From the NCBI GenBank assembly GCA_002737125.1, contig NSHP01000002.1, forward strand, positions 1-36,053: DNA of 36,053 nt, read 5' to 3'. A model generated the notes under the pieces. It searched no databases, was not told the DNA's origin, and was given only the letters and a program-made list of their open reading frames with translations. Source of the stretch: Actinomycetota bacterium. GTDB lineage: Bacteria > Actinomycetota > Actinomycetes > S36-B12. Position 1 is the first letter of the stretch. The number at the start of each line of letters is the position of its first letter. A program made the translations under genes and the position numbers. Below are positions 4,550-36,053 of this stretch, one piece after another.

Positions 4550-5795
4550 GATTTTCGACAGGGTCGGCCCGATCGACCAAGCGGCCCGGGAGTACCGCAT
4601 CGGCCCCAAATCTGGCCCGAAGCGCATCTACCGCAACCTCCGCCTCGCGCCGGCCGTGGTCCGGTGCCCCCAAAACCAACTGCTGGGCAGCCCCATCGGC
4701 GGCCCGCAGCCCTTCCGCCCGCACCCCCACCAGGCGAACCCGGACCCGCTCCAGCCCCATGCTGTCGTACAGGGCCCGGGCGGTTTCATAGATCTCCTGG
4801 GTGACATCGGTCGGGCTGGTCAGGGTGCGCGAACGTGAAACGGTGGTGAAATCAGCAAAGCGGACTTTGATCGCGATGGTGCGGCTGACGTATCCGGCAG
4901 CGCGAACCCGGGTACCCACTTCATTGGCGAGGTGTAAGAGTTTTGCGTGAATCAGTGCTGGGTCATCGATATCTTCGCTGAAAGTTTCCTCGGAGCTAAT
5001 GCTTTTCTCGGGTTCGTGAGGGGTGACTGCGCGGGGGTCAATCCCCCACGCCAAATTGTGTAGGTGGTGGCCGGTGGCTTGACCCAATGCGCGCTGCAAA
5101 GTGGTGATCGGAGTATTAGCAATATCACCCACTGTATAAAGCCCCAGCCGCGTTAGTTGCTCTTCGGTGCGCTCACCAACACCCCACAAGACCGCCACCG
5201 GCAAAGGGTGCAAGAACGCGAGAACCTGATCTGCTGGCACCACCAACACTCCATCTGGTTTACATCTTGCCGACGCAATCTTCGCAACAAACTTGGTGGT
5301 GGCGATGCCAACTGAACAGGTAATACCCTGCTCGTCAACAACTCTTGAACGAATTAATTCGGCAATCGTGGTCGGTGGCCCCAGCCGCCGGATGGTGCCG
5401 GAGATATCCAAAAAAGCTTCATCAAGGCTCAACGGCTCAACAAGTGGCGTAATAGAGTTGAATAAAGCCATTACGTTTCTGCTGACTTCGCTGTAGAGCC
5501 GATGATCGGGGGGAATAATTACCGCTTGCGGAGCAAGGCGCCGCGCCCGTGATATTGGCATCGCCGAGTGCACCCCTAAAGCGCGAGCTTCGTAGGTAGC
5601 CGATAGCACTACCCCTCTGCTGCCGCCGCCAACGATGACCGGCTTGCCATGAAGTTCGGGCCTAGTCCGTAATTCAACGAGTGCGAAGAAGGCGTCCATG
5701 TCTATGTGCAAGATCGGGCACCCGGTGTCGTTGCCATAACCGCGCGAGCTCCGCGGCCCAGGGCCACTTGATCGACGCACCTGACCACGGCTCAT
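4539..5795 (-). CDS. dinB: DNA polymerase IV (Y-family, catalytic residues present)
   Basis: ILHIDMDAFFALVELRTRPELHGKPVIVGG, SLDEAFLD, GITCSVGIATTKFVAKIAS and LWGVGERT are canonical DinB motifs. ATG 5795-5793 overlaps the dnaE2 TGA 5794-5792 (ATGA). A second ATG lies at 5804. The longer ORF-track start (5969) would sit inside dnaE2. Confidence 0.9.
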   Translation of the reverse strand: MSRGQVRRSSGPGPRSSRGYGNDTGCPILHIDMDAFFALVELRTRPELHGKPVIVGGGSRGVVLSATYEARALGVHSAMPISRARRLAPQAVIIPPDHRLYSEVSRNVMALFNSITPLVEPLSLDEAFLDISGTIRRLGPPTTIAELIRSRVVDEQGITCSVGIATTKFVAKIASARCKPDGVLVVPADQVLAFLHPLPVAVLWGVGERTEEQLTRLGLYTVGDIANTPITTLQRALGQATGHHLHNLAWGIDPRAVTPHEPEKSISSEETFSEDIDDPALIHAKLLHLANEVGTRVRAAGYVSRTIAIKVRFADFTTVSRSRTLTSPTDVTQEIYETARALYDSMGLERVRVRLVGVRAEGLRAADGAAQQLVLGAPDHGRREAEVAVDALRARFGADAVLPGRLVDRADPVENQTQ

Positions 5796-8700
5796 GCCGA
5801 CCATCTTCCACCAACAGGAGGGTCGGCCGCTAAAAGTTCGTAAACCGAGCTGGCTCCACCGGTAAGCCAGTGGTCTCGGATGGCACCTAGGCTCCAACAC
5901 CCGGTAGCTCGAATTGAAACACCTCGCGGTCCGGTGCGCCGAACGTGCCCACGAACTAAAACCAGCCAAGAGCTAAAAACAGTGCTCGCATACACATCTT
6001 GCGCATCTTCGAAAAAGGTCGCATCAACCGGCCCGGTACTGTCGTCAACAGTCAAGAAGATCACCCGACGGCCAGAGCGCACCGGTGGTGTCTGGGTAGC
6101 GACTTTAACCCCGGCCACTAGCACCTCCTGCGCTGATCGACAGGATAAAAGATTTTTTGACCTGACAATGCCTAGGGATTTCAGCATCGGGGCGTGGAAG
6201 TCAAGAACATGGCACCGAACATCCATGCTGAGCACATCAAGCTCGGCCCGCACTAACTCGGTAGTTGTCATCTCCGGTAAGCCGGATGGCTCAGTCAACA
6301 TTGGATCATCACCTAAATCTAAGGAGAGCTGCGCAGTGCAGTCTTTGCGCGATTGCTCATTTCGGGCAAGGTCGGCGATATGCAACAAAAGATCGCGCCG
6401 AGTTAGCTGACCTCGACGCTTGGACCCGCTCGCGGGCGCAAATCCGTACATAGTGTCAAAAGCTCCTGAAACGACAATGCGTTCAAGTGTTGGACGTGAC
6501 ATCCCGGCGCGATGCCAGGTATCAGCAAGGGATGAATAAGGCTGACCGGCAATAACGCTCGCACATTCGCTCGTCGAAATCCCTTTGACGTCGGCGAACG
6601 ACACCCTAATAGCGTCTGCCTCAACTCGGTAGGTATCTGACGATGCATTGATATCAAGACCGAGCACCCTAACGCCGTGGTTACGAGCATCATCAAGGAT
6701 TAATCGTTTCGGATACATACCTGGATCATGTGTCAGAACACCCGCATAGAAAGCAGCTGGGTGATGTGTCTTAAGCCATGCCGACTGGTAAGTAGGCAGC
6801 GCAAACGCTGCTGCATGCGCTTTACAAAAACCAAAAGATGCAAATGCCCGAAGTATCTCCCACACTTCTTCAACAACAGTTAATTGATAACCGCGATTCA
6901 AAGCCGCTGGATAAAACCATGCACGCGTATCATCTAGCCCTTCGGCTGAGTTCATGCTGCGCCGGGTTTCATCTGCTTCAGCAAGTGAACAACCAGTCAT
7001 CACCGACAGCACGCGGAGAACTTGCTCATGGAAGACAACTACCCCGTGGGTCTCCGCTAATGCCGGGCGCAAGTCATGGTGCATATAACGTGCCTGGCTC
7101 CACCCTTGCCGGGCCCGCAAGAACGGGGTAATCATGTCGGATTTAACCGGACCAGGGCGAAATAGTGAAATATCAATAATGAGATCACTGAATGTTTCCG
7201 GAGCGAACTTGCCTATTAGTTCGCGTTGCCCTGGTGATTCAATTTGGAAACATCCAAGAGTGCGCGTTGACCTAATAAGGTCGAAAGTCGGTAAATCATC
7301 TAGTGGTTCGGAATCGAGTGCGATCCGAGTACCGGTCGTGCGCTCGACTTCGTCGATGGCATGTGCGATTGACGACTGCATGCGCACCCCTAGTACATCA
7401 AGTTTAAGTAAGCCCATCTCCTCGACATCGTCTTTGTCGAATTGACTCATCGGGTATCCCGCAGCGCTTGGCTCAACCGGGGTGCGATTGAGGAGTGAAA
7501 TATCTGAAAGCAATACCCCGCATGGATGCATCGCCACATTGCGTGGCAGCCCGTCAAGGGCCTCGACTAAGCCCAGGAAGTCATCCAACTCACCACTTTT
7601 CGCCAACCGCCCAAACCCCGACGTCCGCAACTCGGGTAAATCACGTAAAGCCGCGCGAGCATCACGGGCTCTAATATGCGGGAAGGATTTCGCAAATGCG
7701 TCAATCTCTTGTGGCGGTAGCCCACGGGCCGCACCAACATCACGGACCGCATGCCGGACCCGATATGTCTCCATCATTGATACACAGGCGACTCGCTTGG
7801 TACCAAAACGTTCGTAGATCCAGTCATAAACCTCAAGTCTCCGAGCCGATTCGACGTCGATATCAATGTCGGGGAGCACCCGGCGTAGCGGCGATAAGAA
7901 GCGCTCCATCAACAACCCGTATCGAATCGGATCAACACCAGAAATACCAAGTAGATGATTAACTAGGCATCCGGCACCTGAGCCCCTTGCCGCCACCCGG
8001 ACTCCACGCTCTTTGATCATGGAGACAACTTCAGCAACCGTCAAAAAGTAGCCGGCAAAACCTAAGTGCCCAATGACTCGAAGCTCATCAGCGAGCCGAT
8101 CTCGCGCGAGCTGCTGCTCATCACGCGCCACATAGCGCTCCGGGATTTGTTGCTCGCACTGCCACTGCAGTTGGGCCTGTGCGGTCACCTGCTCGACAAC
8201 AGAACCGACCAGTACTTCGCGCTCTGGCACATAAACCTCACCAAGGCCTAGGTCGCGAACTCCATCAATTGCACATGACTCAGCAAGGAAGCGGGTATTG
8301 CGAAGAAGTTCACCGCCACCGCAACCGGCAGCGGTGGCGATATCTTCAGCAATAACATTCATCGCTGCGGTGCTCTTGAAAGCGGCCGAACCATTACCAA
8401 GTTCGATCTGCCGCGAGGTCAAGGGCACCAACTGGCGAGCGGCGTCAAGTACATCGGCAACGCGGCTGTCTTCACTACGCAAGTAGCGAACCGCATTAGT
8501 CAGGACCGGGACGATCTGCTCCTGCACCGCCCAACCCAGCATCCGAGCAGCCGTGGTTTTCGAATACGGGTGGCGACCAGTGCGATGGTGATTAGCTACG
8601 GCAATATGCAAATCGGGGCCGAAGATTTCGCGCCAAGGCCTGATGATGTCTTTGGCTCCGGTAGCACCATGACTAGTGAAATGCCGGCCGAGTTGCGAAT

Positions 8701-9166
8701 CAGGGCCAAGCAGCGCAACGACACCCTCCGAGTTGGCTTGAATTGCCGACCACGACAACCATGGGTTACCTCGATTAAAATGGGCTGCAGAAATCAACCG
8801 ACAAAGCGATGCCCATCCTCGAGCACCGCGGGCAAGGAACACCACCCGCGGGCGCTGCTCATCAACCCAGCCACCACCATGTGCTGGGGTACGCCGCTTA
8901 CTTACTCGACTGTTGCCAGTAGCTGCCTCAACCGCTAGATCAACCGCCAGATCAACCCCAAGAACCGGACTAATACCAACTCGCTGACAAGCCTGCACCC
9001 ACCGCACCGCTCCGTAAACCCCATTGCGATCAGTCAAGCCAACGATGTCGTGGCCAAGTTCAGCCGCGTATTGGGCCAAAGCCGCTGGAGTTGCCGTGCC
9101 GTATTGCAGCGAAAAGCTCGAAGCCACCTGCAGGTGTGCAAAAGCCGCTGCGCCAAAACGTGCCAT
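5792..9166 (-). CDS. dnaE2: error-prone DNA polymerase III alpha-type subunit (DnaE2 / ImuC-like)
   Basis: About 1124 aa from ATG 9166, which has GAGGG 13 nt upstream. Has an N-terminal PHP-like region, the polymerase motif LPDIDIDVES, and GFCKAHAAAFA. Size, SOS-box context and linkage to dinB favour DnaE2 over replicative DnaE1. Confidence 0.85.
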   Translation of the reverse strand: MARFGAAAFAHLQVASSFSLQYGTATPAALAQYAAELGHDIVGLTDRNGVYGAVRWVQACQRVGISPVLGVDLAVDLAVEAATGNSRVSKRRTPAHGGGWVDEQRPRVVFLARGARGWASLCRLISAAHFNRGNPWLSWSAIQANSEGVVALLGPDSQLGRHFTSHGATGAKDIIRPWREIFGPDLHIAVANHHRTGRHPYSKTTAARMLGWAVQEQIVPVLTNAVRYLRSEDSRVADVLDAARQLVPLTSRQIELGNGSAAFKSTAAMNVIAEDIATAAGCGGGELLRNTRFLAESCAIDGVRDLGLGEVYVPEREVLVGSVVEQVTAQAQLQWQCEQQIPERYVARDEQQLARDRLADELRVIGHLGFAGYFLTVAEVVSMIKERGVRVAARGSGAGCLVNHLLGISGVDPIRYGLLMERFLSPLRRVLPDIDIDVESARRLEVYDWIYERFGTKRVACVSMMETYRVRHAVRDVGAARGLPPQEIDAFAKSFPHIRARDARAALRDLPELRTSGFGRLAKSGELDDFLGLVEALDGLPRNVAMHPCGVLLSDISLLNRTPVEPSAAGYPMSQFDKDDVEEMGLLKLDVLGVRMQSSIAHAIDEVERTTGTRIALDSEPLDDLPTFDLIRSTRTLGCFQIESPGQRELIGKFAPETFSDLIIDISLFRPGPVKSDMITPFLRARQGWSQARYMHHDLRPALAETHGVVVFHEQVLRVLSVMTGCSLAEADETRRSMNSAEGLDDTRAWFYPAALNRGYQLTVVEEVWEILRAFASFGFCKAHAAAFALPTYQSAWLKTHHPAAFYAGVLTHDPGMYPKRLILDDARNHGVRVLGLDINASSDTYRVEADAIRVSFADVKGISTSECASVIAGQPYSSLADTWHRAGMSRPTLERIVVSGAFDTMYGFAPASGSKRRGQLTRRDLLLHIADLARNEQSRKDCTAQLSLDLGDDPMLTEPSGLPEMTTTELVRAELDVLSMDVRCHVLDFHAPMLKSLGIVRSKNLLSCRSAQEVLVAGVKVATQTPPVRSGRRVIFLTVDDSTGPVDATFFEDAQDVYASTVFSSWLVLVRGHVRRTGPRGVSIRATGCWSLGAIRDHWLTGGASSVYELLAADPPVGGRWSA

Positions 9167-9199
9167 CAGTAATCGAACCCTCGTGTAGATAGTTTTTAT

Positions 9200-9285
9200 C
9201 AACAGTTGACTTGCCGAAGATTCAGCAGTCGAAGCCCAGCTGGAGACAGGGAACTGGGCTTCGACCGCTGCTGAACCAACTGTTG
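9200..9285 (-). promoter_or_regulatory. long imperfect palindrome (about 28 bp paired) in the HEPN-dnaE2 intercistronic gap
   Basis: Pairings checked by hand: 9200-9208 with 9277-9285 (9 bp), 9221-9228 with 9268-9275 (8 bp), 9229-9239 with 9254-9264 (11 bp), and a 14-nt loop. Confidence 0.5.
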
Positions 9286-9308: not shown

Positions 9309-9752
9309 TTAGTTCGTACTCAAGATTTCAGCCAGCAACATAGGTTGGTGGGGCAACCCCAAGGACCCGACTATCCGGGCTAGAAAAGTGTCAGCATCAC
9401 GAAGGAGGTCATCGGCCTCGCGCTCAGAAACACAAGCAATCCCGGCTTCGGCCGCGGCTCGTTTGCGCGCACCCGCCGCAAAAAACATCGACCATTCGGT
9501 GAACTCGGCGGCAACCTCAGGAAGCACCACCCAGACACTGCGCACCTGGCGGCGGCGACCAGATGGGCGGCTGCGAGTTGCCAAGACCGCCGCCGCTGCT
9601 CGGAGGGCAGCAAGGTGCGCGGCGGCGTAGCGCGCACTGGGGGACTGCGCCAGCATCGCCTCGGTCAAACTGCGGCGCGCTGACATCACTAAATCAAGGG
9701 CGGCACCGGGAACCGAAGTGTTCGGCAGCCGATGCTCCATCAGGACTGTCAT
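9309..9752 (-). CDS. SAV_6107-like HEPN domain protein (non-catalytic HEPN; no Rx4-6H motif seen)
   Basis: 147 aa. ...ARYAAAHLAALRAAAAVLA...RRRQVRSVWVVLPEVAAEFTEWSMFFAAGARKRAAAEAG...SEREADDLLRDADTFLARI matches my recollection of the actinobacterial SAV_6107 HEPN family. SD GAGGAG lies upstream of ATG 9752. Confidence 0.7.
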   Translation of the reverse strand: MTVLMEHRLPNTSVPGAALDLVMSARRSLTEAMLAQSPSARYAAAHLAALRAAAAVLATRSRPSGRRRQVRSVWVVLPEVAAEFTEWSMFFAAGARKRAAAEAGIACVSEREADDLLRDADTFLARIVGSLGLPHQPMLLAEILSTN

Positions 9753-12978: not shown

Positions 12979-14289
12979 CTACCGAGTCGCTAGCAAACTG
13001 CTCTGGTCAGCCGGTTCCCGGGCAACGGCTCCGGTCAGCAGGTTCCCGGGCAACGGCTCCGGTGGCCCGACCGACCCCGCCAACTTAGCCGCGGGGATTG
13101 TTTGCGGGCGGCTCTCATCAGCTATCGCCTCCCGATAAACCTCGACCGTTTGAGCCGCGATTGCGGGCCAGCCGAAATCACTTCGCACTTTGGTACGTGC
13201 GGCCCGGGCAGCCGCGGCCGCAAGCGGTGAATCAAGTAGCACCTGTACCAGGGCAGCAGCTAATTCAACTGCGTTACCTGGAGTGAAAGTGCGCCCCGTA
13301 ACACCATCTTCAACCAACTCTGCCAATCCACCGGTTCGTGCCACTACAAGCGGCGTGCCAACCGATGCTGCTTCGAGTGCAACTATGCCAAAGGGCTCAT
13401 ATAAGGACGGCACCACCACCGCATCGGCCGCAGCGACAAGCGCATGCAATTGCTCCTCAGGTAGCCAACCCAAAAAGTTCACCGCCTTACCAAGGCGCTT
13501 TGCTTTAACCTGTTCGCGCAATTGCGAGTCGGCGCTCCCCCGGCCCGCAATAACCAGGTGCACACCTGCAACCTGTCGCCGTAGGCGCGGCATCGCGTCA
13601 ATCAAGGTGTGGACACCTTTCTCCCACTCCAAGCGCCCGGTAAAAACAACTAGCGGGGTCTGGTACTGAGCTCGTGCGATTTGCCGCTGCCTGGCAGTTA
13701 CCCGCCAGCGGTCTGGGTCAATCCCATTGGCAATCACCACGGTCTTATCCAGCGGTGGGTCAAAGAGTTGCCCCACCTCCCACCGCATGTGTTCACTGCA
13801 GGCAATCACCCGCCGGGCTTCATAAGTTGACCACCACTCGATGCTGTGAATACTTCGCGAGAGTTCACTTGGTAGCCAACCTTGATGCCGACCAGCCTCG
13901 GTCGCATGCATTGTCGTCACATACGGGACGCGTGCCGCTTCTTTGATTACTGCCGCGGCGTGGGCAACCAGCCAATCATGACCGTGCACTACCTGCGGCT
14001 TCCAGGTGCGCATCAGTCGGATTCCCGCGCGAGCTACCGCGCTATTAAAGCCAGCGACCCAAGCCAGCAGGTGCTCTTCATCAAGGGGCACATACGGTGC
14101 ATCCGGGCTCACCCGCAATACCCGAACCCCGTTTACAACCTCATCAGGGCTGGCGCCATCAGTTGCCTGCGTGATTACCGCGACATCGAGGCCGAGTGCA
14201 GCTTGGGTCTGCGCGATTGCGTGCACGTGACGCCCCAAGCCGCCGTACACCACCGGTGGGTACTCCCACGACAGGTGAAGGATTCGCAC
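12979..14289 (-). CDS. GT4 family alpha-glucosyltransferase (Rv3032-like)
   Basis: (V)RILHLSWEYPPVVYGGLGRHVHAIA... is an N-terminus typical of Rv3032-type GT4 enzymes, with a C-terminal EPFGIVALEA motif. I prefer GTG 14289. The longer start GTG 14340 (MTEEAGL...) is encoded by a repeat unit (see findings). Confidence 0.85.
   Translation of the reverse strand: MRILHLSWEYPPVVYGGLGRHVHAIAQTQAALGLDVAVITQATDGASPDEVVNGVRVLRVSPDAPYVPLDEEHLLAWVAGFNSAVARAGIRLMRTWKPQVVHGHDWLVAHAAAVIKEAARVPYVTTMHATEAGRHQGWLPSELSRSIHSIEWWSTYEARRVIACSEHMRWEVGQLFDPPLDKTVVIANGIDPDRWRVTARQRQIARAQYQTPLVVFTGRLEWEKGVHTLIDAMPRLRRQVAGVHLVIAGRGSADSQLREQVKAKRLGKAVNFLGWLPEEQLHALVAAADAVVVPSLYEPFGIVALEAASVGTPLVVARTGGLAELVEDGVTGRTFTPGNAVELAAALVQVLLDSPLAAAAARAARTKVRSDFGWPAIAAQTVEVYREAIADESRPQTIPAAKLAGSVGPPEPLPGNLLTGAVAREPADQSSLLATR
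13007..13062. repeat. 28-nt tandem duplication (2 copies, 1 mismatch) inside the 3' tail of the GT4 gene
   Basis: tcagccggttcccgggcaacggctccgg (13007-13034) and tcagcaggttcccgggcaacggctccgg (13035-13062). The unit length is not a multiple of 3. Confidence 0.9.
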
Positions 14290-14317
14290 CCCCGCAGCAT
14301 ACGGCCAGCAAGCCCGG

Positions 14318-14440
14318 CCTAAACCTGCTTCTTCCGTCACCTGAGGTCCTTAAACCTGCTTCTTCCGTCACTTTTGTGGTGGATTTTGACGGAACGAGCA
14401 GGCATAAGGTCCGCCCATGACGGAACGAGCAGGCCTAAGG
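14318..14440. repeat. four copies of a 23-nt unit (TGACGGAA-SR-AGCAGG-N3/4-AAGG) as two nested inverted pairs
   Basis: Minus orientation: 14318-14339 and 14348-14370. Plus orientation: 14387-14409 and 14418-14440. The inner pair is separated by the loop cttttgtggtggattt. Confidence 0.9.
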
Positions 14441-14472
14441 CCTGTGGATAGTCATTTGGCACTACGTGATTA

Positions 14473-15438
14473 ATGCTGAACGCTGTCACCATGACATTGG
14501 ACAACTCCAACGACTCAATTTCACTGCCCGAAATCTTCACCATGTCCGAGGCCTTGGCCGCGGGTATGACCGCTGGCCAAGTGCGGCAGCGGGTTCGTTC
14601 AGGGCGCTGGGCGGCACTTGGATCTGGTACCTATTCGAGGAGTTTCCCTCGGGCCGACGATCTTGATCCGTTCGCCCAACGTCGTAATTTGCATGTGCAA
14701 CTAGCCGTTGCCCGGGCGCTGAAAGTCTCGGGCAGTGTCATTGCCTTTGGTTCTGCAGCAATGCTGCATCAGTTGCCACTCATGACTGGCACACCCCGAA
14801 ATGTTGAACTTCTTGTTCCACCTGGGGCATGGACCGGTACTCGCACGGGCACGCGGTACCGATCCGGCGCCTTAGCTCCGACAGAAATATCTCACCTGCC
14901 TGCTCCGGTGACGACCCCATTGCGAACGTGGCTCGATATCGCCCGCATCCATCCCTTCGCCGACGCAATTTGTTGCGGCGATGCGGCACTTCGCTCCGGA
15001 CTATTCACCGTTGCAGCACTCGATGCTGCCCTACCCAGCACGGATATTCGTGGCAGCAGTCGCGTACACCGCGCCGCGCGTCACCTGAGCATGCTTCGAG
15101 AATCGGCTCTAGAGTCACTCTCGTGGGTTAGATTCCTTGACTGGGACATCGAACTTCCGACCTGTCAATTTCAGGTAAGTGATAGCGGTGGGCGATTCGT
15201 CGCGCGGGTGGATTTTTGCTGGGAGGACAAAATGGTAATCGGCGAGGCTGACGGCCGTCTCAAATACACCAACAAAGAGAGTCTGTATCAGGAAAAATTA
15301 CGCGAAGATCGACTACGCGAATTGGGCTTCGTGGTAATCAGGTGGAGTTGGAGCGACTTACAAGAGCCCGCTGCCGTACTCAAGAGGCGCATATCCACTG
15401 CCCTCATACGGTCGCACCACACATTACGTTCGGCCTGA
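14473..15438 (+). CDS. AbiEi_4-like wHTH + PD-(D/E)xK (DUF559-like) endonuclease-fold protein, paralog 1
   Basis: 321 aa. N-terminus FTMSEALAAGMTAGQVRQRVRSGRWAALGSGTY (AbiEi-like wHTH). C-terminus ESLSWVRF...ARVDFCWEDKMVIGEADG...REDRLRELGFVVIRWSWSDL (D...E-x-D-G nuclease core). Clearly homologous to the 27013-27933 product (RTWLD, GD-ALRSGL, ARVD..W....V..E.DG). Confidence 0.75.
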   Translation: MLNAVTMTLDNSNDSISLPEIFTMSEALAAGMTAGQVRQRVRSGRWAALGSGTYSRSFPRADDLDPFAQRRNLHVQLAVARALKVSGSVIAFGSAAMLHQLPLMTGTPRNVELLVPPGAWTGTRTGTRYRSGALAPTEISHLPAPVTTPLRTWLDIARIHPFADAICCGDAALRSGLFTVAALDAALPSTDIRGSSRVHRAARHLSMLRESALESLSWVRFLDWDIELPTCQFQVSDSGGRFVARVDFCWEDKMVIGEADGRLKYTNKESLYQEKLREDRLRELGFVVIRWSWSDLQEPAAVLKRRISTALIRSHHTLRSA

Positions 15439-15494
15439 ACCTGCTGAAACCGTCAAAAAATGCCCAAAAAATGACGGAACGAGCAGGTACAAGG
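15434..15494. repeat. inverted pair of the same 23-nt unit family, downstream of paralog 1
   Basis: cctgaacctgctgaaaccgtca (15434-15455, degenerate), loop aaaaatgcccaaaaaa, then tgacggaacgagcaggtacaagg (15472-15494). The gene's TGA (15436-15438) lies in the left unit. Confidence 0.85.
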
Positions 15495-15556
15495 CCCACC
15501 CGTGACCAGGCGGCTACCGGCACCAAGCCCACCCGTGACCAGGCGGCTACCAGCGC
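15491..15556. repeat. about 33-nt tandem duplication (2 copies)
   Basis: An identical 24-nt core cccacccgtgaccaggcggctacc at 15495-15518 and 15528-15551, directly abutting the hairpin unit. Confidence 0.9.
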
Positions 15557-22023: not shown

Positions 22024-22244
22024 CGGTTAAACGTACCGGGTCTGACAGCGTTTGCATTCTTAGCCCTACCAAGTCCATCCCGTGCATCAAGTGCCGGTGA
22101 AAGTTGAGCTACGTTCGGTCCGGGTGTGGTGGGGATAGCGCCATCAATTCTTGAGCCACAAAGCTCATTTCCTTGCATTTACCCCCGAACTGTGTTCTCA
22201 GCGTTATATCCAAATTATCCATCAGATAGGAAACTGTGAGTGCC

Positions 22245-22364
22245 ATGCCAAGTTCAAATATTGTGGTTCCTGTGAGTTCAGCGCCGACTGATCGGTTGGT
22301 ACTTGGTGTCGGTTGGGTGCGCCCCGGTGCAGGCAGCAACTCCACAAGCTTCATTGAGTGGTGA
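22245..22364 (+). other. copy A of a duplicated module; intact 39-codon ORF on + (MPSSNIVVPVSSAPTDRLVLGVGWVRPGAGSNSTSFIEW)
   Basis: Homologous to 22463-22555, with 81 percent identity over the 64-nt core by hand alignment. The last codons and the stop come from palindromic element E1. Coding status is unproven; the antisense frame is equally compatible. Confidence 0.35.
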
Positions 22365-22412
22365 GTTGTTACAAGAAAAATACAAACTTATTTGTGTCAA
22401 CTCACCACTCAA
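22354..22412. repeat. degenerate copy (E1) of the GTTGAGTGGTGAG...CTCACCACTCAAC palindromic element
   Basis: ttgagtggtgagttg (22354-22368) pairs perfectly with caactcaccactcaa (22398-22412). The inner part is decayed relative to E2 and E3. Confidence 0.85.
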
Positions 22413-22462
22413 CGAAGAAGTTCTCACCTATAAAGATCACAACGAGAAGATTTGAGCACTAA

Positions 22463-22639
22463 ATGCCAAGTACCGACGTTAATTAACCAGTTAGTTCAGC
22501 GCCGATCGATCGGCTCGCACTCAGTGTTGGTTGGGTCCGCCCGGGTGCAGCCGGTATCGGCGGCACGCTAAACCCGCTTACCTGGATCGTCGGACAACTA
22601 CTACCGCCATGCGGCTGCTTTGAGGGTAATGAGGAGTAG
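22463..22639 (+). other. copy B of the duplicated module; same frame is interrupted by TAA at 22484-22486, then open to TAG 22637-22639
   Basis: ATGCCAAGT is shared with copy A. After the in-frame TAA it reads PVSSAPIDRLALSVGWVRPGAAG..., parallel to copy A. Confidence 0.3.
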
Positions 22640-22771
22640 AACTCTTCCTGAACACTAGATTTCGTGTTGGAACAGTGTTGCCGGGCAGCGGGCCTTAGCG
22701 CTGACCGAAAAGTACGGCATTGCCCCGCTACCAATAAAAGCTTTGTTATGCCGAGGTAGTCTTAACCCATT

Positions 22772-24766: not shown

Positions 24767-26961
24767 TGGGTAAGACGCCGAAGGTAAACAAAATACCCGT
24801 GGCAATTGGAGACCTTGATCGACTTGTCGATGGTTGGCACCCCAATCCACATGAAATTCTGGGACCGCATCTATCCAACGGAGCGGTTACTGTTCGGGTA
24901 TTACGCCCCATGGCCGATTCGGTAACTGTGGTAACTGAAAATTCTTCGATCCAACTTGACCATGAATTCCGCGGAGTTTGGTGCGGAGTCATCCCGATGC
25001 CGAACGTGCCTAATTACTCAATCGAAGTTCAGTACGGTGACCAAATCGTGTCTGCAGAAGACCCGTACCGATTCTTACCGACCATTGGCGAAATCGATTT
25101 GCACTTAATCCACGAGGGACGCCACGAACAGCTCTGGGAAGTACTCGGTGCGCATACCCGCAGCTACCCAACCCCACAAGGTGAGGTAACCGGAGTTTCA
25201 TTTGCGGTATGGGCACCCAATGCGCGTGGGATTCGCCTCGCCGGCGACTTTAACTTTTGGGATGGCACCGCACATCCGATGCGCAGCCTGGGGGTGTCGG
25301 GTATTTGGGAGTTGTTCGTCCCGAATGTTACGGACGGCAACAAATATAAATTCCAAATCTTAGGAAGCGATGGGATCTGGAGGCACAAGGCCGACCCATG
25401 CGCCTTCGCAACCGAAATTCCACCCGCCAACGGTTCGGTTGTCTTTACTTCTAATTACGTCTGGCAAGACTCATTATGGATAGCCAAGCGCGCGAATATG
25501 GACGTACTTGCCGCTCCGATGAGTATCTATGAAGTCCACCTAGGCTCTTGGCGCGCCGAGCTAAAGTATCGCCAGCTCGCCGAGGAGCTAGTCGACTATC
25601 TCATCGACACTGGCTTCACCCATGTTGAGTTTCTCCCCGTCGCCGAGCACCCCTACGGACCATCCTGGGGTTACCAAGTCACTTCTTATTTCGCACCCAC
25701 CTCACGTTTTGGCTCACCCGATGACCTTCGCTATCTCATTGACCGCCTCCATCAATCCGGAATTGGCGTTTTAGTTGATTGGGTTCCGGCTCACTTCCCT
25801 AAAGATGAGTGGGCCCTGGCCCGCTTCGATGGCACCGCACTATATGAACACCCAGACCCAAAACGTGGCGAGCACCCAGACTGGGGCACCCATGTCTTTC
25901 ACTTCGGTCGCGTTGAAGTCCGAAACTTTCTAGTTGCAAATGCGCTCTACTGGTTCGAGGAGTTTCACGTCGATGGCCTGCGCGTTGATGCAGTGGCTTC
26001 AATGCTTTATCTCGATTACTCGCGGGGGCCAGGTGAGTGGGAGCCCAATCAATACGGAGGCCGCGAGAATCTCGATGCCGTTGCTTTCTTACAAGAAGTA
26101 AATGCAACGGTCTATAAGCGGGTGCCTGGAGTTGTGATGGTCGCCGAGGAATCAACCGCCTGGCCTGGTGTCACCCAGTCGACCCAATTAGGCGGATTAG
26201 GTTTTGGGCTCAAGTGGAATATGGGCTGGATGCACGATGCCCTCGGCTACATTCAGCATGAACCAATTCACCGTCAATACCACCATGATGAAATAACATT
26301 TTCCATGGTCTACGCCTATAGCGAGCACTTTGTTTTACCGGTATCTCACGACGAAGTTGTGCATGGCAAAGGCTCACTTATCGGGCGAATGCCCGGTGAC
26401 CGCTGGCAGCAACTTGCGAATCTACGAGCCTTCTTGGCCTTCATGTGGGCGCACCCCGGAAAAAAGTTGCTCTTCATGGGTTCGGAGTTTGCCCAATCTG
26501 GTGAATGGGCCAGCCAGCGCAGTCTGGATTGGTCGTTACTTCAACTTGCCGAACACGCAGGCGTCTTACTCACGGTGACTGATCTAAATAACGTTTATCG
26601 AGCGACTCCAGCGCTCTGGCAACGCGACGACGACCCAGGCGGCTTCGAGTGGATCGACGCCGGTGATGCTCCCGGAAATATTTTCACCTGGCTCCGTTGG
26701 GATAAAGCTGGCCAGCCCCTTGCCTGTGCCGTCAACTTCTCCCCCACCCCGCATACGGGTTACCGCATTGGGTTGCCGCTAAGTGGCAGTTGGACCGAAG
26801 TAATTAACACCGATGCCGACGTTTACGGTGGCAGCGGGGTCGGAAATCTTGGCGGCGTAACTGCTGTCGACGTTCCTTGGCAGGGCCGCCCAGCGTCTGC
26901 TCTGGTGGTGCTGCCGCCATTGGCCGCTATCTACCTGCGCTATGACCCAACCCCCCGTTGA
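24766..26961 (+). CDS. glgB: 1,4-alpha-glucan branching enzyme
   Basis: GTG 24766 overlaps the glgE TAG by 1 nt (TAGTG), giving 731 aa. Has [35 protein letters not shown] and SHDEVVHGK. The longer ORF-track start lies inside glgE. Confidence 0.9.
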
Positions 26962-27020
26962 GTGGTGAGGCGTTGCAACTTTTTTTGAAAAAAAGTTGCA
27001 ACGCCTCACCACTCAACGGG
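26954..27020. repeat. 67-nt perfect palindrome E2 (33+1+33)
   Basis: cccgttgagtggtgaggcgttgcaacttttttt g aaaaaaagttgcaacgcctcaccactcaacggg, centred on 26987. It contains the glgB TGA (26959-26961) in the left arm and the TGA of the convergent gene (27013-27015, minus) in the right arm. Confidence 0.95.
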
Positions 27021-27933
27021 GCCGGTTGACAGCTGGAATGCGCGAACGGCTGCGAAGTGCCGAATCAACTAATGCCACCATCCCCCAAGGTCGGATCAAG
27101 TCATTTGCCGTGAAGACAATCACCATCCAGCCTTGATCTTGCAAAAGGTTTCGCCTGGTGGCATCGTGACGGCGCTGTTTATCCTCCGCGTGCACTATTC
27201 CGTCGTACTCCGCGACAACTCTTTGCTCAGACCACGCCAAATCTACTCGTGCGATCCATTCGCCATCACTGACTATTTCCAGGTTGCACTGCGGCCTAGG
27301 TATCCCAGCCAGTACCAGGTGCGCACGCGTGATTGACTCCCCCGGTGATTCTGATTTGGGATCTAGTAGCGAAATTACTCGGCGAGCGTTTGTCACCCCG
27401 CGACGCCGATGCGCCCAGTGCACCAGCGACTCCAACTCCGCAAGCGAGGTGAGGCCGGAGCGAAGAGCGAAATCCCCCATTGCGACTAGGTGCTCGATCG
27501 GCACCAACGCTGCACAGTCAAGCCATGTGCGCGCCGCAGTCGTGACTTTAAGTCTGTGTATTTGAGTTAGGTGATCGTCGGGCATCATTAGCCGGCGACC
27601 GCGCACCCCGCGCCGCTGGGGCCGAACCCCACCCGCGGCTACCGCAACTGTGTCGGTCTGAGTGCCTTCGAGGACGGCTAGCCATGGCGGTAGCGGTAAC
27701 CCCCACAATCTAGCTGCCGAGACATCAGCTAAAACTGCTTTCGGCCCACAGACCAAACTGGCCGCAGACGCTATTGCCAATCCCCGATCGGCGACCGATA
27801 CCGCATAGCGAACCCCCCGCGACGGCGAGATCAACTTCCTCGTGCGCCCTTCGGCAAGCGTCAAGGCGTCGGGCCGCAATGTCGAAACCAAGCTGGCGCC
27901 GTTTACAACAAACTCCAGTGGAATCTTTGACAT
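27013..27933 (-). CDS. AbiEi-like/PD-(D/E)xK (DUF559-like) endonuclease-fold protein, paralog 2
   Basis: 306 aa. ...TAARTWLDCA...MGDFALRSGL...SESPGESITRAHLVLAGIPRPQCNLEI...ARVDLAWSEQRVVAEYDGIVH...RRNLLQDQGWMVIVFTANDL. Homologous to 14473-15438. The upstream 140 bp is conspicuously AT-rich. Confidence 0.75.
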   Translation of the reverse strand: MSKIPLEFVVNGASLVSTLRPDALTLAEGRTRKLISPSRGVRYAVSVADRGLAIASAASLVCGPKAVLADVSAARLWGLPLPPWLAVLEGTQTDTVAVAAGGVRPQRRGVRGRRLMMPDDHLTQIHRLKVTTAARTWLDCAALVPIEHLVAMGDFALRSGLTSLAELESLVHWAHRRRGVTNARRVISLLDPKSESPGESITRAHLVLAGIPRPQCNLEIVSDGEWIARVDLAWSEQRVVAEYDGIVHAEDKQRRHDATRRNLLQDQGWMVIVFTANDLIRPWGMVALVDSALRSRSRIPAVNRPR

Positions 27934-28075
27934 GTACTAATTACAGCTACTTAGCATTTGTGCTTCAAAATGAAAATTGATCCTGTGCGTGCCGGTCCAA
28001 CGTTGGTAGCCTTGGGGATAACTTTTAAACGTGCCCTGGATTTGGGTAGGCCAGCACAAAGTACCCGAGCACAGA

Positions 28076-28142
28076 TCCGTTGAGTGGTGAGTTGTTACAA
28101 CGTTTTTTGAAAAAAAGTTGTAACAACTCACCACTCAACGGA
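28076..28142. repeat. 67-nt palindrome E3 (one central mismatch)
   Basis: tccgttgagtggtgagttgttacaacgtttttt g aaaaaaagttgtaacaactcaccactcaacgga, centred on 28109. It differs from E2 at three stem positions, each changed on both arms so that pairing is kept. Confidence 0.95.
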
Positions 28143-28189
28143 GAAGGCCAACGGAGAAAGCCAACGGACATCGGGATGAGCGGCTCAGG

Positions 28190-35870: not shown

Positions 35871-36053
35871 GTGGGTAGGCGGTTGCGGGTATTGGCGGAC
35901 GAGCATTGTCATCATGTGACTGTGCGTTGTAATAATCGGGATTTTTTGCTGCACCGCAGTCAGTGTCGTGATGTGCTACTCGGGGCGGTGTTTCGGGCCA
36001 AGGCCAGGTATCACTTTGACGTGTATGGGGTGTGTGTGATGAGTAATCATGTG
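35871..36053 (+). mobile_element. 5' part of an HUH Y1 transposase gene (RAYT / IS200-like, COG1943 type), runs off the window
   Basis: An open frame with no stop to the window end: (V)GRRLRVLADEHCHHVTVRCNNRDFLLHRSQCRDVLLGAVFRAKARYHFDVYGVCVMSNHV. It matches the HHVTxRxNxRxxxF ... YCxMxNHVH (HUH) pattern. Candidate starts are TTG 35865, GTG 35868 and GTG 35871. Confidence 0.7.

What the first reader, a model, noticed from the sequence alone, without database searches (positions are those of the whole stretch)
26954..28142. Nuclease-fold gene bracketed by two 67-nt palindromes that co-vary on both arms and donate stop codons to both neighbours
E2 (26954-27020) is a perfect 33+1+33 palindrome. 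E3 (28076-28142) is the same element with a single mismatch. They differ at three stem positions (GC..G versus TT..A in the left arm), and each difference is mirrored in the right arm, so pairing is preserved. This is direct evidence that hairpin or cruciform structure is maintained or copied. The arm sequence GTTGAG / CTCAAC supplies the TGA of glgB on the plus strand and the TGA of the convergent AbiEi/DUF559-like gene on the minus strand. Together the two elements bracket a 1.19-kb unit carrying only that gene and an AT-rich upstream region. The unit sits at a junction (glgB | thioredoxin) that is otherwise syntenic with Mycobacterium Rv1326c/Rv1324. The architecture (subterminal hairpins, single cargo gene) resembles IS200/IS605-like or REP/BIME-bounded units rather than a TIR transposon. 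A Y1 HUH transposase gene begins at 35871.
Basis: partly seen in the sequence, partly recalled or inferred. Interest (0 to 1): 0.7.

Follow-up and report, generated by a model that had tools for sequence, protein, structure and literature searches.

The report
Nuclease gene bracketed by cognate palindromes
Two near-perfect 67-bp DNA palindromes bracket a Vsr-fold nuclease gene as a 1.19-kb unit inserted between glgB and a thioredoxin gene, and the same layout, each gene with its own palindrome sequence, recurs across Actinomycetota, an arrangement I found described in no paper.

Summary
E2 (26953-27021) is a perfect 34+1+34 palindrome. E3 (28076-28142) is 33+1+33 with one mismatch. They differ at three stem positions, each mirrored on the other arm. 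E2 supplies the TGA of both glgB and the cargo gene. A third copy, E1, lies at 22349-22417.

The 1.19-kb unit is a real insertion. Relatives with 83% thioredoxin identity have an empty 26-nt glgB|trx junction. An 88% relative has a solitary 37-nt mini-palindrome there. A 96% relative has the full unit.

The palindromes belong to the gene they bracket, not to the Y1 transposase at 35871. Homologues of the 306-aa cargo protein (an N-terminal AbiEi-like region plus a DUF559/Vsr-fold nuclease) are bracketed by two palindromes at seven further chromosomal sites, plus a paralogue in this window. The recognition box co-varies with the protein. The best solved-structure match is the homing endonuclease I-Bth0305I.

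Solitary copies abut gene 3' ends, mostly between convergent genes. The system resembles REPIN/RAYT but has a PD-(D/E)xK-type nuclease in place of the HUH enzyme. Binding, cleavage and the mode of spread are inferred, not shown. No description was found in the literature searched.

The parts
26953..27021 (.). E2: perfect 34+1+34 palindrome. The outer box is CGTTGAGTGGTGAG and the inner stem is GC..G type. It supplies the TGA of glgB (26959-26961, + strand) and the TGA of the cargo gene (27013-27015, - strand).
   Evidence: 76.7 bits; -44 kcal/mol, z -14
27013..27933 (-). Cargo gene, 306 aa. It has an N-terminal region with weak AbiEi-like matches and a C-terminal DUF559/Vsr-fold (PD-(D/E)xK-type) nuclease. 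D231, E242 and D244 are invariant and H248 is nearly so. The C-terminal ..RPR* is encoded by CCCCGTTGA of E2.
   Evidence: pLDDT 89.5; 3r3p, TM 0.77
27934..28075 (-). A 142-nt upstream region of the cargo gene with 46.5% G+C. It is the presumed promoter and 5' UTR, and it is conserved in the 96% relative. No sigma-70-type consensus was found.
28076..28142 (.). E3: 33+1+33 palindrome with one mismatch. It has the same outer box as E2, and its inner stem is TT..A type.
   Evidence: 75.5 bits; -35 kcal/mol, z -12
28136..28168 (+). A 13-nt tandem repeat (2.5 copies) that reiterates the right terminus of E3: CAACGGAGAAGGC / CAACGGAGAAAGC / CAACGGACATCGG.
   Evidence: unexplained
22349..22417 (.). 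E1: a solitary member of the same palindrome family between glgP and glgE. It has 26-nt arms and a 17-nt non-palindromic apex. It is absent from this intergenic region in the 83% relatives.
   Evidence: (58.8 bits)
14322..15488 (+). A second unit of the same architecture. It holds a paralogous DUF559 gene (14473-15438, 31% identity to the cargo). An unrelated hairpin family brackets it: CCTGCTTCTTCCGTCA / TGACGGAACGAGCAGG, doubled upstream at 14322-14452 and single downstream at 15439-15488, directly after the stop codon.
   Evidence: (D2)
35871..36053 (+). The 5' part of a Y1 HUH (IS200/RAYT-like) gene, cut off by the end of the window. My evidence does not tie it to E2/E3.

Best explanation
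E2 and E3 are two copies of a 60-70-bp DNA palindrome family that is the cognate partner of the gene they bracket. That gene encodes a two-domain protein: an N-terminal AbiEi-like region that presumably binds DNA, and a C-terminal Vsr/DUF559-fold nuclease. The palindrome-gene-palindrome module is a selfish, or possibly domesticated, genetic unit that was inserted between glgB and the thioredoxin gene in this lineage.

Most likely mechanism (inferred): the protein binds the two conserved outer boxes as a dimer and nicks or cuts the palindrome. Repair copied from another palindrome copy (gene conversion) then keeps the two arms and the different copies identical. The same process seeds solitary palindromes at tolerated sites, mainly the 3' ends of genes. 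Occasionally it copies the whole module into a site that already carries a solitary palindrome. In form this is a REPIN/RAYT-like system whose flanked, low-copy gene is a PD-(D/E)xK-type nuclease rather than a Y1 HUH transposase, and it has the logic of a free-standing homing endonuclease.

Shown:
- the palindromes and their DNA-level covariation;
- the insertion polymorphism;
- the recurrent bracketed architecture, with the box changing together with the protein;
- the predicted nuclease fold and conserved catalytic residues.

Inferred:
- binding of the palindrome by the protein;
- cleavage;
- the repair-based mode of spread.

The confidence of 0.6 is a blend. I put about 0.85 on the claim that gene and palindromes form one cognate, inserted module, and about 0.4-0.5 on the specific mechanism of nuclease cutting followed by gene conversion.
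For: 1. **The module recurs.** It is found at seven further chromosomal sites and in a second unit in this window.
   - L125/L159/L164 and L181: the pepN..DUF5130-malQ site.
   - L178 and L194: the LytR|GT2 site.
   - L180: DUF3071|thymidine kinase, in the same 3.68-Mb genome as L181.
   - Arthrobacter L189 and L190, and Tsukamurella L192.
   - The window paralogue at 14473-15438.
2. **The box co-varies with the protein, on both arms and in both flanking copies.** The boxes are GTTGAGTGGTGAG (window, L125), GTTGAGTGGCCAG (L178), GTTGAGCGGCGG (L181) and CGAGCGGTGAG (L180). Arthrobacter, Tsukamurella and the window paralogue have unrelated boxes.
3. **The site is polymorphic among relatives.** The 83% relatives have an empty junction, the 88% relative has a solitary mini-palindrome, and the 96% relative has the full unit.
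4. **The symmetry acts on DNA, not RNA.** Stem positions 19-24 show 44 double compensatory changes and no G-U intermediates. In the inner stem, G.T pairs (11) are not enriched over A.C pairs (20). The GC/GC state of E2 on both arms arose after the split from the 96% strain.
5. **Copies are homogeneous within a genome.** Palindromes in one assembly share near-identical inner stems, and these differ between assemblies.
6. **The protein looks like an active nuclease.** D231, E242 and D244 are invariant. The structure model has pLDDT 89.5. The best PDB match is the catalytic domain of the homing endonuclease I-Bth0305I, with TM 0.77. That enzyme is a homodimer that footprints about 60 bp (PMC3239194).
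7. **Assemblies break at the palindromes.** Homologues mostly sit on contigs of about 1.1 kb that end in the palindromes.
8. **The stop codon lies in the palindrome across the family.** 68% of close full-length homologues end in Arg, which fits CGT-TGA within CGTTGAG.
Against: - No biochemical evidence shows that the protein binds or cuts the palindrome.
- Copy number per genome could not be measured. The one genome-collection scan was wasted on a pattern that was too short.
- The low-G+C relatives carry palindromes with the identical box, next to relics of the Y1 gene. No cargo orthologue above 58% identity was found for them.
- At two sites the unit is orthologous across deeply diverged genomes. 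That fits a stably inherited, possibly regulatory, gene as well as a mobile one.
- No target-site duplication or cleavage site could be defined.
- Homology arms of about 30 bp are short for the proposed repair-mediated copying.
- The Nonomuraea homologue (L193) shows no flanking palindromes.
Confidence: 0.6

Rival explanations
1. The palindromes are regulatory parts of the gene rather than mobile DNA. The upstream copy would be an operator bound by the AbiEi-like N-terminal domain for autoregulation, as in AbiEi antitoxins. The downstream copy would be a bidirectional terminator or insulator. Solitary copies would be relics left when recombination between the two flanking copies deleted the gene, or decoy operators.
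For: - PADLOC gives AbiEi matches to residues 57-207.
- The spacing is constant: the upstream palindrome lies about 100-143 nt before the start codon, and the downstream one overlaps the stop codon.
- The unit is inherited vertically at the pepN-malQ and LytR-GT2 sites.
- Solitary copies sit where terminators sit.
Against: - This reading does not explain why solitary copies within a genome stay nearly identical to the flanking ones.
- It does not explain why the whole apex is kept palindromic at the DNA level.
- Relic-by-deletion still requires the unit to have been at ten or more different sites, so it still requires mobility.
- No AbiEii toxin gene lies next to the cargo gene.
- No T-run follows the stem.
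Confidence: 0.2
2. The palindromes are REPINs mobilised by the Y1 RAYT-like transposase (35871 onward). The DUF559 gene would be a passenger trapped between two of them.
For: - The Y1 protein scores better against NCBIfam REP_Tyr_transpos (63 bits) than against IS200 (17.7 bits).
- Relics of the Y1 gene lie about 1 kb from E1-type palindromes in L157, L173 and L132.
- E1 abuts the same ~250-nt unit that follows the Y1 gene in L179.
Against: - The 63-bit score is below the 80-bit cut-off.
- The nearest homologues outside this species are cyanobacterial, at 55-60% identity.
- No palindrome lies within 57 nt upstream of the Y1 gene in the window, within about 780 nt upstream or 40 nt downstream in L179, or within about 500 nt downstream in L183.
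- The 83% relatives have the Y1 gene but none of the palindromes in 16 kb.
- The high-G+C, Arthrobacter and Tsukamurella units have no Y1 homologue in the fetched loci.
- A passenger gene would not show a box that co-varies with its own sequence.
Confidence: 0.1
3. The unit is a true cut-and-paste insertion sequence. The palindromes would be its ends and the DUF559 nuclease its transposase. Solitary palindromes would be excision footprints or MITE-like derivatives.
For: - The unit is discrete and shows presence/absence polymorphism.
- The two ends are identical.
- PD-(D/E)xK nucleases do take part in transposition, for example TnsA of Tn7 (a weak fold-search hit at rank 26).
Against: - No target-site duplication is visible.
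- There are one or two gene copies per genome rather than many.
- The unit occupies orthologous positions across deep divergence.
- No strand-transfer (DDE, HUH or recombinase) activity is predicted. A nuclease alone cannot integrate DNA.
Confidence: 0.08
4. The palindromes are ordinary intrinsic bidirectional terminators that merely happen to look alike.
For: They lie at gene 3' ends, about half of them between convergent genes.
Against: - A box of 12 or more bases (12 were fixed by the scan pattern), a constant length of 59-60 nt, and two further unconstrained stem pairs recur at dozens of non-orthologous loci from metagenome assemblies of very different G+C content.
- There is no T-run after the stem.
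- Other convergent junctions in the same loci carry unrelated hairpins.
- The junction is empty in relatives.
Confidence: 0.02

Closest known systems
REPIN/RAYT systems (REP doublets and REP-associated tyrosine transposases; Bertels & Rainey, PMC3116915, PMC3337134)
   Same: - Both have dispersed extragenic palindromes that form long hairpins and are kept paired by compensatory change.
- Both show genome-specific sequence families.
- In both, a low-copy, vertically inherited gene is flanked on both sides by its cognate repeats.
- Several orthogonal gene/repeat pairs can coexist in one genome (L180 and L181).
   Different: - The flanked gene here is a DUF559/Vsr-fold nuclease with an N-terminal AbiEi-like region, not a Y1 HUH enzyme.
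- The palindromes are near-perfect through the apex.
- There is no GTAG-like head.
- The known copy number is modest: three in 36 kb here, and about ten or more loci in single metagenome populations.
Free-standing or EDxHD (Vsr-like) homing endonucleases, prototype I-Bth0305I (PMC3239194; PDB 3r3p)
   Same: - The Vsr-like catalytic domain is the best structural match (TM 0.77).
- Both have a multidomain architecture.
- I-Bth0305I is a homodimer that footprints about 60 bp on a pseudo-palindromic target, which matches the size and symmetry of these palindromes.
- The gene shows presence/absence polymorphism at a fixed site among relatives.
   Different: - The gene is not in an intron or intein, and it is not in a phage.
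- Two complete copies of the putative target bracket the gene, rather than the gene disrupting a single target.
- Sequence identity to 3r3p is only 15%.
IS200/IS605 family
   Same: There are hairpins at both ends and no terminal inverted repeats. The element is small, with a single gene.
   Different: - The gene is not a Y1 transposase.
- The two ends are the same perfect palindrome rather than distinct imperfect left-end and right-end hairpins.
- The neighbouring Y1 gene shows no consistent link to the palindromes.
AbiEi antitoxins (type IV TA / abortive infection AbiE)
   Same: There are weak AbiEi matches in the N-terminal half. AbiEi proteins bind inverted repeats in their own promoters.
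   Different: There is no AbiEii nucleotidyltransferase partner. The C-terminal domain is a nuclease. Palindromes lie on both sides of the gene and elsewhere in the genome.

Membership tests
REPIN/RAYT system | Short palindromic repeats dispersed in extragenic positions, as a family | tested here: met
   There are three copies in the window. A metagenome scan returned 51 loci, most with the conserved box and constant length, and nearly all of those examined abut gene 3' ends. Copy number per genome was not measured.
REPIN/RAYT system | Two inverted half-sites form a long hairpin that is maintained by compensatory change | tested here: met
   19 pairs carry double changes, and 0 of 500 shuffles reached the observed covariation. 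One search agrees.
REPIN/RAYT system | The cognate flanked gene is a Y1 HUH (RAYT) transposase | tested here: not met
   The flanked gene is DUF559/Vsr-fold. The Y1 gene of the window has no palindrome in the 57 nt upstream of it. Its relatives L179 and L183 have none within 0.5-0.8 kb.
IS200/IS605 | A Y1 TnpA (with or without TnpB) encoded between distinct subterminal left-end and right-end hairpins | tested here: not met
   The only ORF in the unit is DUF559. The two ends are the same palindrome.
Homing endonuclease (EDxHD/Vsr-like, free-standing) | Vsr-like catalytic fold with conserved acidic and His residues | tested here: met
   3r3p with TM 0.77 and rmsd 2.9 over 99 columns. D231, E242 and D244 are invariant and H248 is at least 90% conserved.
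Homing endonuclease (EDxHD/Vsr-like, free-standing) | Presence/absence polymorphism of the gene at one locus among close relatives | tested here: met
   The junction is empty in L182-L185, holds a solitary palindrome in L186-L188, and is filled in the window and L174.
Homing endonuclease (EDxHD/Vsr-like, free-standing) | The enzyme cleaves the gene-less allele, and repair copies the gene in | not testable with these tools
   This needs cleavage assays and crosses.
Integron gene cassette (attC) | attC polarity 5'-RYYYAAC...GTTRRRY-3', with an IntI integrase and attI nearby | tested here: not met
   GTTGAGT and ACTCAAC fit the R-box consensus, but the polarity is reversed (GTTRRRY at the 5' end). 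None of the eight ORFs flanking the unit that were scanned against Pfam is an integrase. The attC consensus is from established knowledge.
AbiE (AbiEi/AbiEii) toxin-antitoxin | An AbiEi wHTH antitoxin paired with an adjacent AbiEii nucleotidyltransferase toxin | tested here: not met
   There are only weak AbiEi matches (E 4e-7). There is no second gene inside the unit or next to it.
Intrinsic (rho-independent) terminator | A G+C-rich stem followed by a T-run, with sequence not conserved between loci | tested here: not met
   The terminator scan found nothing at E2 or E3. The box sequence is conserved across dozens of unrelated loci.
TIR transposon / MITE | Terminal inverted repeats with a target-site duplication | tested here: inconclusive
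   Comparing the empty and filled sites shows no clear duplication. At most, a CG dinucleotide lies at both palindrome ends.

The most novel reading that the evidence does not exclude
This is a previously unrecognised class of REPIN-like mobile palindromes whose mobilising or maintaining enzyme is a sequence-specific Vsr-fold (PD-(D/E)xK-type) nuclease rather than an HUH transposase. It would be widespread in Actinomycetota. The protein family has thousands of subfamilies, and each subfamily checked here has a private palindrome 'code' that co-evolves with its N-terminal half. Such systems would shape intergenic regions and gene 3' ends. They would also offer a natural library of orthogonal protein/DNA-site pairs.
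Probability: 0.4. Interest if true: 0.85.

Novelty: new variant of a known kind. Interest (0 to 1): 0.78.

Why it matters
- **Function for a large unannotated family.** If the nuclease and the palindromes are a functional pair, a large family of 'DUF559 / AbiEi-domain' proteins gains a concrete, testable function. The family has 2,297 clusters at 50% identity with E <= 1e-30 and 18,476 with E <= 1e-10.
- **A REP-like repeat system in Actinomycetota.** The phylum would gain a REP/REPIN-type system driven by an enzyme class not previously tied to such repeats.
- **Practical annotation issues.** It would explain recurrent assembly breaks that leave gene-sized contigs of about 1.1 kb. It would explain altered C-termini of neighbouring genes: here glgB has lost its own TAG and ends at a TGA inside the palindrome.
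- **DNA-recognition resource.** Each subfamily checked here has its own 12-24-bp box, so the family may hold many matched protein/DNA-site pairs.
- **Ready test material.** The three states found at the glgB|trx junction (empty, solitary palindrome, full unit) give a ready-made natural experiment.

Tried and rejected
- **Rfam.** The gathering-threshold search found nothing. The E-value search found only spurious miRNA-precursor hairpin matches. This is not a known RNA family.
- **tRNA scan.** It found nothing, so there is no tRNA-linked integration.
- **Viral contigs.** There were no matches, so the family is not phage-borne.
- **attC analogy.** The R-box consensus fits, but the polarity is reversed and no integrase was found among the flanking genes scanned.
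- **E. coli YcjD.** This DUF559-only protein has no annotated repeat beside it. The analogy does not extend to it.
- **Nonomuraea homologue L193.** It is a partial match with no flanking palindromes.
- **Promoter scan upstream of the cargo gene.** No sigma-70-type match was found.
- **Weak model hit at 9215-9281.** It is an unrelated hairpin.
- **Literature.** No paper links DUF559 or Vsr-like genes to flanking palindromes.


Full report
**1. The observation**

- E2 is a perfect 34+1+34 palindrome at 26953-27021.
- E3 is 33+1+33 at 28076-28142 with a single mismatch.
- The two differ at three stem positions. The left arm reads GAG-GC-GTT-G-CAAC in E2 and GAG-TT-GTT-A-CAAC in E3. Each difference is mirrored in the right arm.
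- The TGA of glgB (26959-26961) lies in the left arm of E2. The TGA of the convergent 306-aa gene (27013-27015, minus strand) lies in the right arm. The thioredoxin gene keeps its own TAG.
- The half-site GTTGAGTGGTGAG occurs six times against 0.71 expected.
- The DNA folds are 12-14 standard deviations below shuffled sequence.
- A third member, E1 (22349-22417), lies between glgP and glgE. It has the same boxes and the same total length but a non-palindromic apex.
- A covariance model built from the family finds exactly these three copies in the 36 kb.

**2. A dispersed, structured DNA family**

One metagenome scan for the two outer boxes, allowing any 20-50 nt between them, returned 51 loci.
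- Most hits have a constant core of 59-60 nt and the outer stem CGTTGAGTGGTGAG. A few short or irregular ones look like chance or degenerate matches.
- Their inner stems differ completely between assemblies but remain almost perfectly self-complementary.
- On a 36-sequence alignment, 19 of 32 pairs carry changes on both sides. None of 500 shuffles reaches the observed covariation. Sliding the partner column by one drops pairing from 84% to 35-38%.
- At stem positions 19-24 there are 44 double changes and not one G-U intermediate.
- Across the inner stems, G.T pairs (11) are no more frequent than A.C pairs (20).

The constraint therefore acts on both strands, that is, on DNA rather than on one transcript. 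Rfam has no matching family.

**3. The unit is an insertion**
- Relatives whose thioredoxin protein is 83% identical (L182-L185) are collinear from the acyltransferase gene to glgP. Their glgB and thioredoxin genes are separated by 26 nt, with no palindrome and no extra gene.
- A relative at 88% (L186-L188) has, at exactly this junction, a solitary 37-nt mini-palindrome, CGTTGAGTGATGAGTTG-TTG-CAACTCACCACTCAACG, and no gene.
- A strain whose cargo protein is 96% identical (L174) has the complete unit at the same place.
- In the relatives glgB ends ...DPNP-TAG. In the window that TAG is gone and the reading frame runs on to the TGA of the palindrome.
- In the 96% strain the E2 equivalent is of the TT type, with an A/G mismatch between the arms. 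The GC/GC state of the window's E2 on both arms is therefore recent. That is better explained by copying (arm to arm, or from another copy) than by four independent substitutions.

**4. The palindromes belong to the gene they bracket**

The cargo protein matches DUF559 at its C-terminus and, weakly, AbiEi in its N-terminal half. Its homologues (272 with E < 1e-10, typically 50-58% identical) are mostly unnamed proteins of Actinomycetota and 'Candidatus Nanopelagicales' MAGs. A striking share of them sit on contigs of 1.0-1.5 kb. Two such contigs, L176 and L177, start just after the upstream palindrome and stop inside the downstream one.

Wherever longer DNA was available, the gene is bracketed by two palindromes:

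| Locus | Site | Box |
|---|---|---|
| L125/L159, L164 | pepN .. DUF5130-malQ | GTTGAGTGGTGAG |
| L181 | same site (neighbours 73-75% identical, cargo only about 52%) | GTTGAGCGGCGG |
| L180 | DUF3071 / thymidine kinase, same 3.68-Mb genome as L181 (the two proteins are 54% identical) | CGAGCGGTGAG |
| L178 | LytR / GT2 | GTTGAGTGGCCAG |
| L194 | LytR / GT2 (proteins 62% identical to L178) | GTTGAGCGGCC... / GATGAGCGGCCAG, more degenerate |

- Within each unit both arms and both copies carry the same variant.
- More distant homologues (31-37% identical) in cultured bacteria show the same architecture with unrelated palindromes of 57-65 nt. These are Arthrobacter sp. ERGS1:01 (CCGTTGAGGGCCCAGATAATCC, with the stop codon again inside CGTTGA), Arthrobacter sp. 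StoSoilB13 (CGAGATGGCATTTGATGACAATCC) and Tsukamurella tyrosinosolvens (ACATCTTTCGAAGCGTTCTG...).
- The window itself holds a second case. A paralogue at 14473-15438 (31% identical) is bracketed by CCTGCT....CCGTCA / TGACGG....AGCAGG hairpins, and the downstream one starts at its stop codon.
- 68% of close full-length homologues end in Arg, as expected if CGT-TGA of the palindrome closes the frame.
- A profile search counts 2,297 clusters at 50% identity with E <= 1e-30.

**5. What the protein looks like**
- An AlphaFold model from 34 sequences is confident (pLDDT 89.5, pTM 0.87).
- Its best match among solved structures is the catalytic domain of the homing endonuclease I-Bth0305I. The match has probability 1.0, TM 0.77 on the target and rmsd 2.9 over 99 columns, although the whole-query E-value is weak (0.02) and identity is 15%.
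- A profile search of PDB sequences finds the DUF559 protein 3hrl.
- D231, E242 and D244 are invariant and H248 is nearly so.
- I-Bth0305I is a multidomain homodimer that footprints about 60 bp on a pseudo-palindromic site (PMC3239194). That matches the size and symmetry of these palindromes. This parallel is an inference, not a test.

**6. Where the solitary copies sit**

I assigned coding frames by GC3 in the high-G+C loci.
- Of about 23 solitary palindromes, about 12 lie between convergent genes, about 6 between tandem genes and 1-2 between divergent genes.
- Nearly all abut a stop codon.
- In several, the neighbour's stop codon is the palindrome's own TGA.
- Within one assembly the copies share nearly identical inner stems. 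Examples are at least six solitary loci plus the unit in VFQT/VFQS, and about nine loci in the Ga01815xx salt-marsh set.
- Other convergent junctions in the same loci carry unrelated hairpins. This family is therefore not simply 'the terminator' of these genomes.

**7. The Y1 gene**
- The gene at 35871 is a Y1 HUH protein. It matches PF01797, and it scores 63 bits against REP_Tyr_transpos (cut-off 80) and 17.7 bits against IS200.
- Outside its own species, its nearest relatives are cyanobacterial 'transposases' at 55-60% identity.
- In a strain with a 97% identical protein it sits in another context, after a tRNA gene.
- The 83% relatives carry it next to the same acyltransferase gene but have none of the palindromes in 16 kb.
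- No Y1 homologue is present in the fetched loci that hold the other units.
- There is a local association of another kind. E1-type palindromes in low-G+C relatives lie beside a ~250-nt unit that also follows the Y1 gene and forms tandem arrays, and relics of the Y1 gene lie about 1 kb away. I could not resolve what builds those arrays.
- I rate the Y1 enzyme as an unlikely general partner of the palindromes. I cannot exclude a role for it in this low-G+C lineage.

**8. Most likely mechanism, and its status**

I commit to this model. The protein recognises the two outer boxes, cuts the palindrome, and repair templated by other copies homogenises arms and copies. The same repair seeds solitary palindromes and occasionally copies the gene into a site that already has a palindrome.

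The model accounts for:
- the bracketed architecture;
- the box co-variation with the protein;
- the DNA-level symmetry;
- the three states found at the glgB|trx junction;
- the homogeneity of copies within a genome;
- the structural kinship with a homing endonuclease.

The weak points are:
- no binding or cleavage data;
- very short homology arms of about 30 bp;
- long vertical persistence at two sites, which fits domestication or regulation as well as mobility;
- the unidentified cognate protein for palindromes in the low-G+C relatives.

The main rival is a regulatory reading: an operator plus an insulating terminator of an autoregulated nuclease gene, with the solitary copies as relics.

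**9. Comparison with known systems, and novelty**
- In form, the closest known system is REPIN/RAYT. It shares dispersed hairpin repeats with compensatory maintenance, a low-copy cognate gene flanked by them, vertical persistence, and several orthogonal pairs per genome. It fails the defining test that the flanked gene be a Y1 transposase.
- In enzyme, the closest is the EDxHD/Vsr-like homing endonuclease family. That family, however, lives in phage introns and is not bracketed by two whole targets.
- IS200/IS605, integron attC, AbiE and intrinsic terminators each fail a defining feature (see the membership table).
- Six full-text literature searches found no paper describing DUF559-type genes flanked by palindromes.
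- I class this as a new variant of a known kind, a REP-like repeat system with a different enzyme. There is a fair chance that it is a new class of mobile or self-maintaining element.

**10. Limits**
Copy numbers per genome and a gene/palindrome co-occurrence profile are therefore missing.
- The organism is known only as an unnamed actinobacterial MAG lineage (GCA_009694585.1, GCA_945861355.1).
It rests on general knowledge and was not tested here.

Noticed in passing
window 14322-15551: A second DUF559 gene (14473-15438, 31% identical to the cargo) is bracketed by a different hairpin family, CCTGCTTCTTCCGTCA / TGACGGAACGAGCAGG. The hairpin is doubled and nested upstream and single downstream, starting at the stop codon. 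Two 33-nt tandem repeats follow at 15486-15551.
   Followed up: partly
window 22238-22700; L140 75-2300; L132; L157 1117-1756: E1 abuts a ~250-nt non-coding unit. The unit has a core of about 64 nt, repeated at 22269-22332 and 22487-22550, and the end motif TGCTTTGAGGGTAATGA(A/G)GAGTAG. The same unit forms tandem arrays (period 248) in related metagenome contigs. Each array junction carries the last 9 nt of the palindrome (CACTCAACG). Rfam has no match.
   Followed up: partly
window 22640-22700; L179 1600-1691: The sequence after the array-unit motif matches the reverse complement of the 3' end of the Y1 gene. A Y1 copy therefore probably once lay between glgP and glgE. The same motif follows the intact Y1 gene in L179.
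   Followed up: partly
window 35871-36053; L122 5380-5991; L179 779-1651: The nearest homologues of the Y1 (IS200/RAYT-like) protein are cyanobacterial at 55-60% identity. In a strain with a 97% identical protein the gene sits in a different context, after a tRNA gene. This suggests horizontal acquisition and recent movement.
   Followed up: partly
window 28136-28168: A 13-nt tandem repeat (2.5 copies) reiterates the right terminus of E3 (CAACGGAGAAxGC). A similar reiterated CTCAAC(G) follows the palindromes in L157 and L166.
   Followed up: no
L125, L164, L181 (pepN..DUF5130-malQ site): At this orthologous site the neighbouring proteins are 73-75% identical (pepN, malQ) or 51-53% (DUF5130). 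The bracketed nuclease proteins are only about 52% identical. This points to fast evolution or allele replacement at a palindrome-marked site.
   Followed up: partly
L182 13492-14781; L183 13008-14297: An IS256-type transposase gene (PF00872) is inserted in the glgP-glgE intergenic region of some 83% relatives. The same region holds E1 in the window, so it appears to be a recurrent landing zone.
   Followed up: no
window 9215-9281: An unrelated 22-bp-stem hairpin (DNA fold z -5.8) lies in the gap between ORFs 5792-9202 and 9309-9752. It is probably an ordinary terminator.
   Followed up: partly
window 12996-13063: A 28-nt tandem repeat (2.4 copies, 92% matches) lies inside the 453-aa ORF 12979-14340 on the minus strand.
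   Followed up: no
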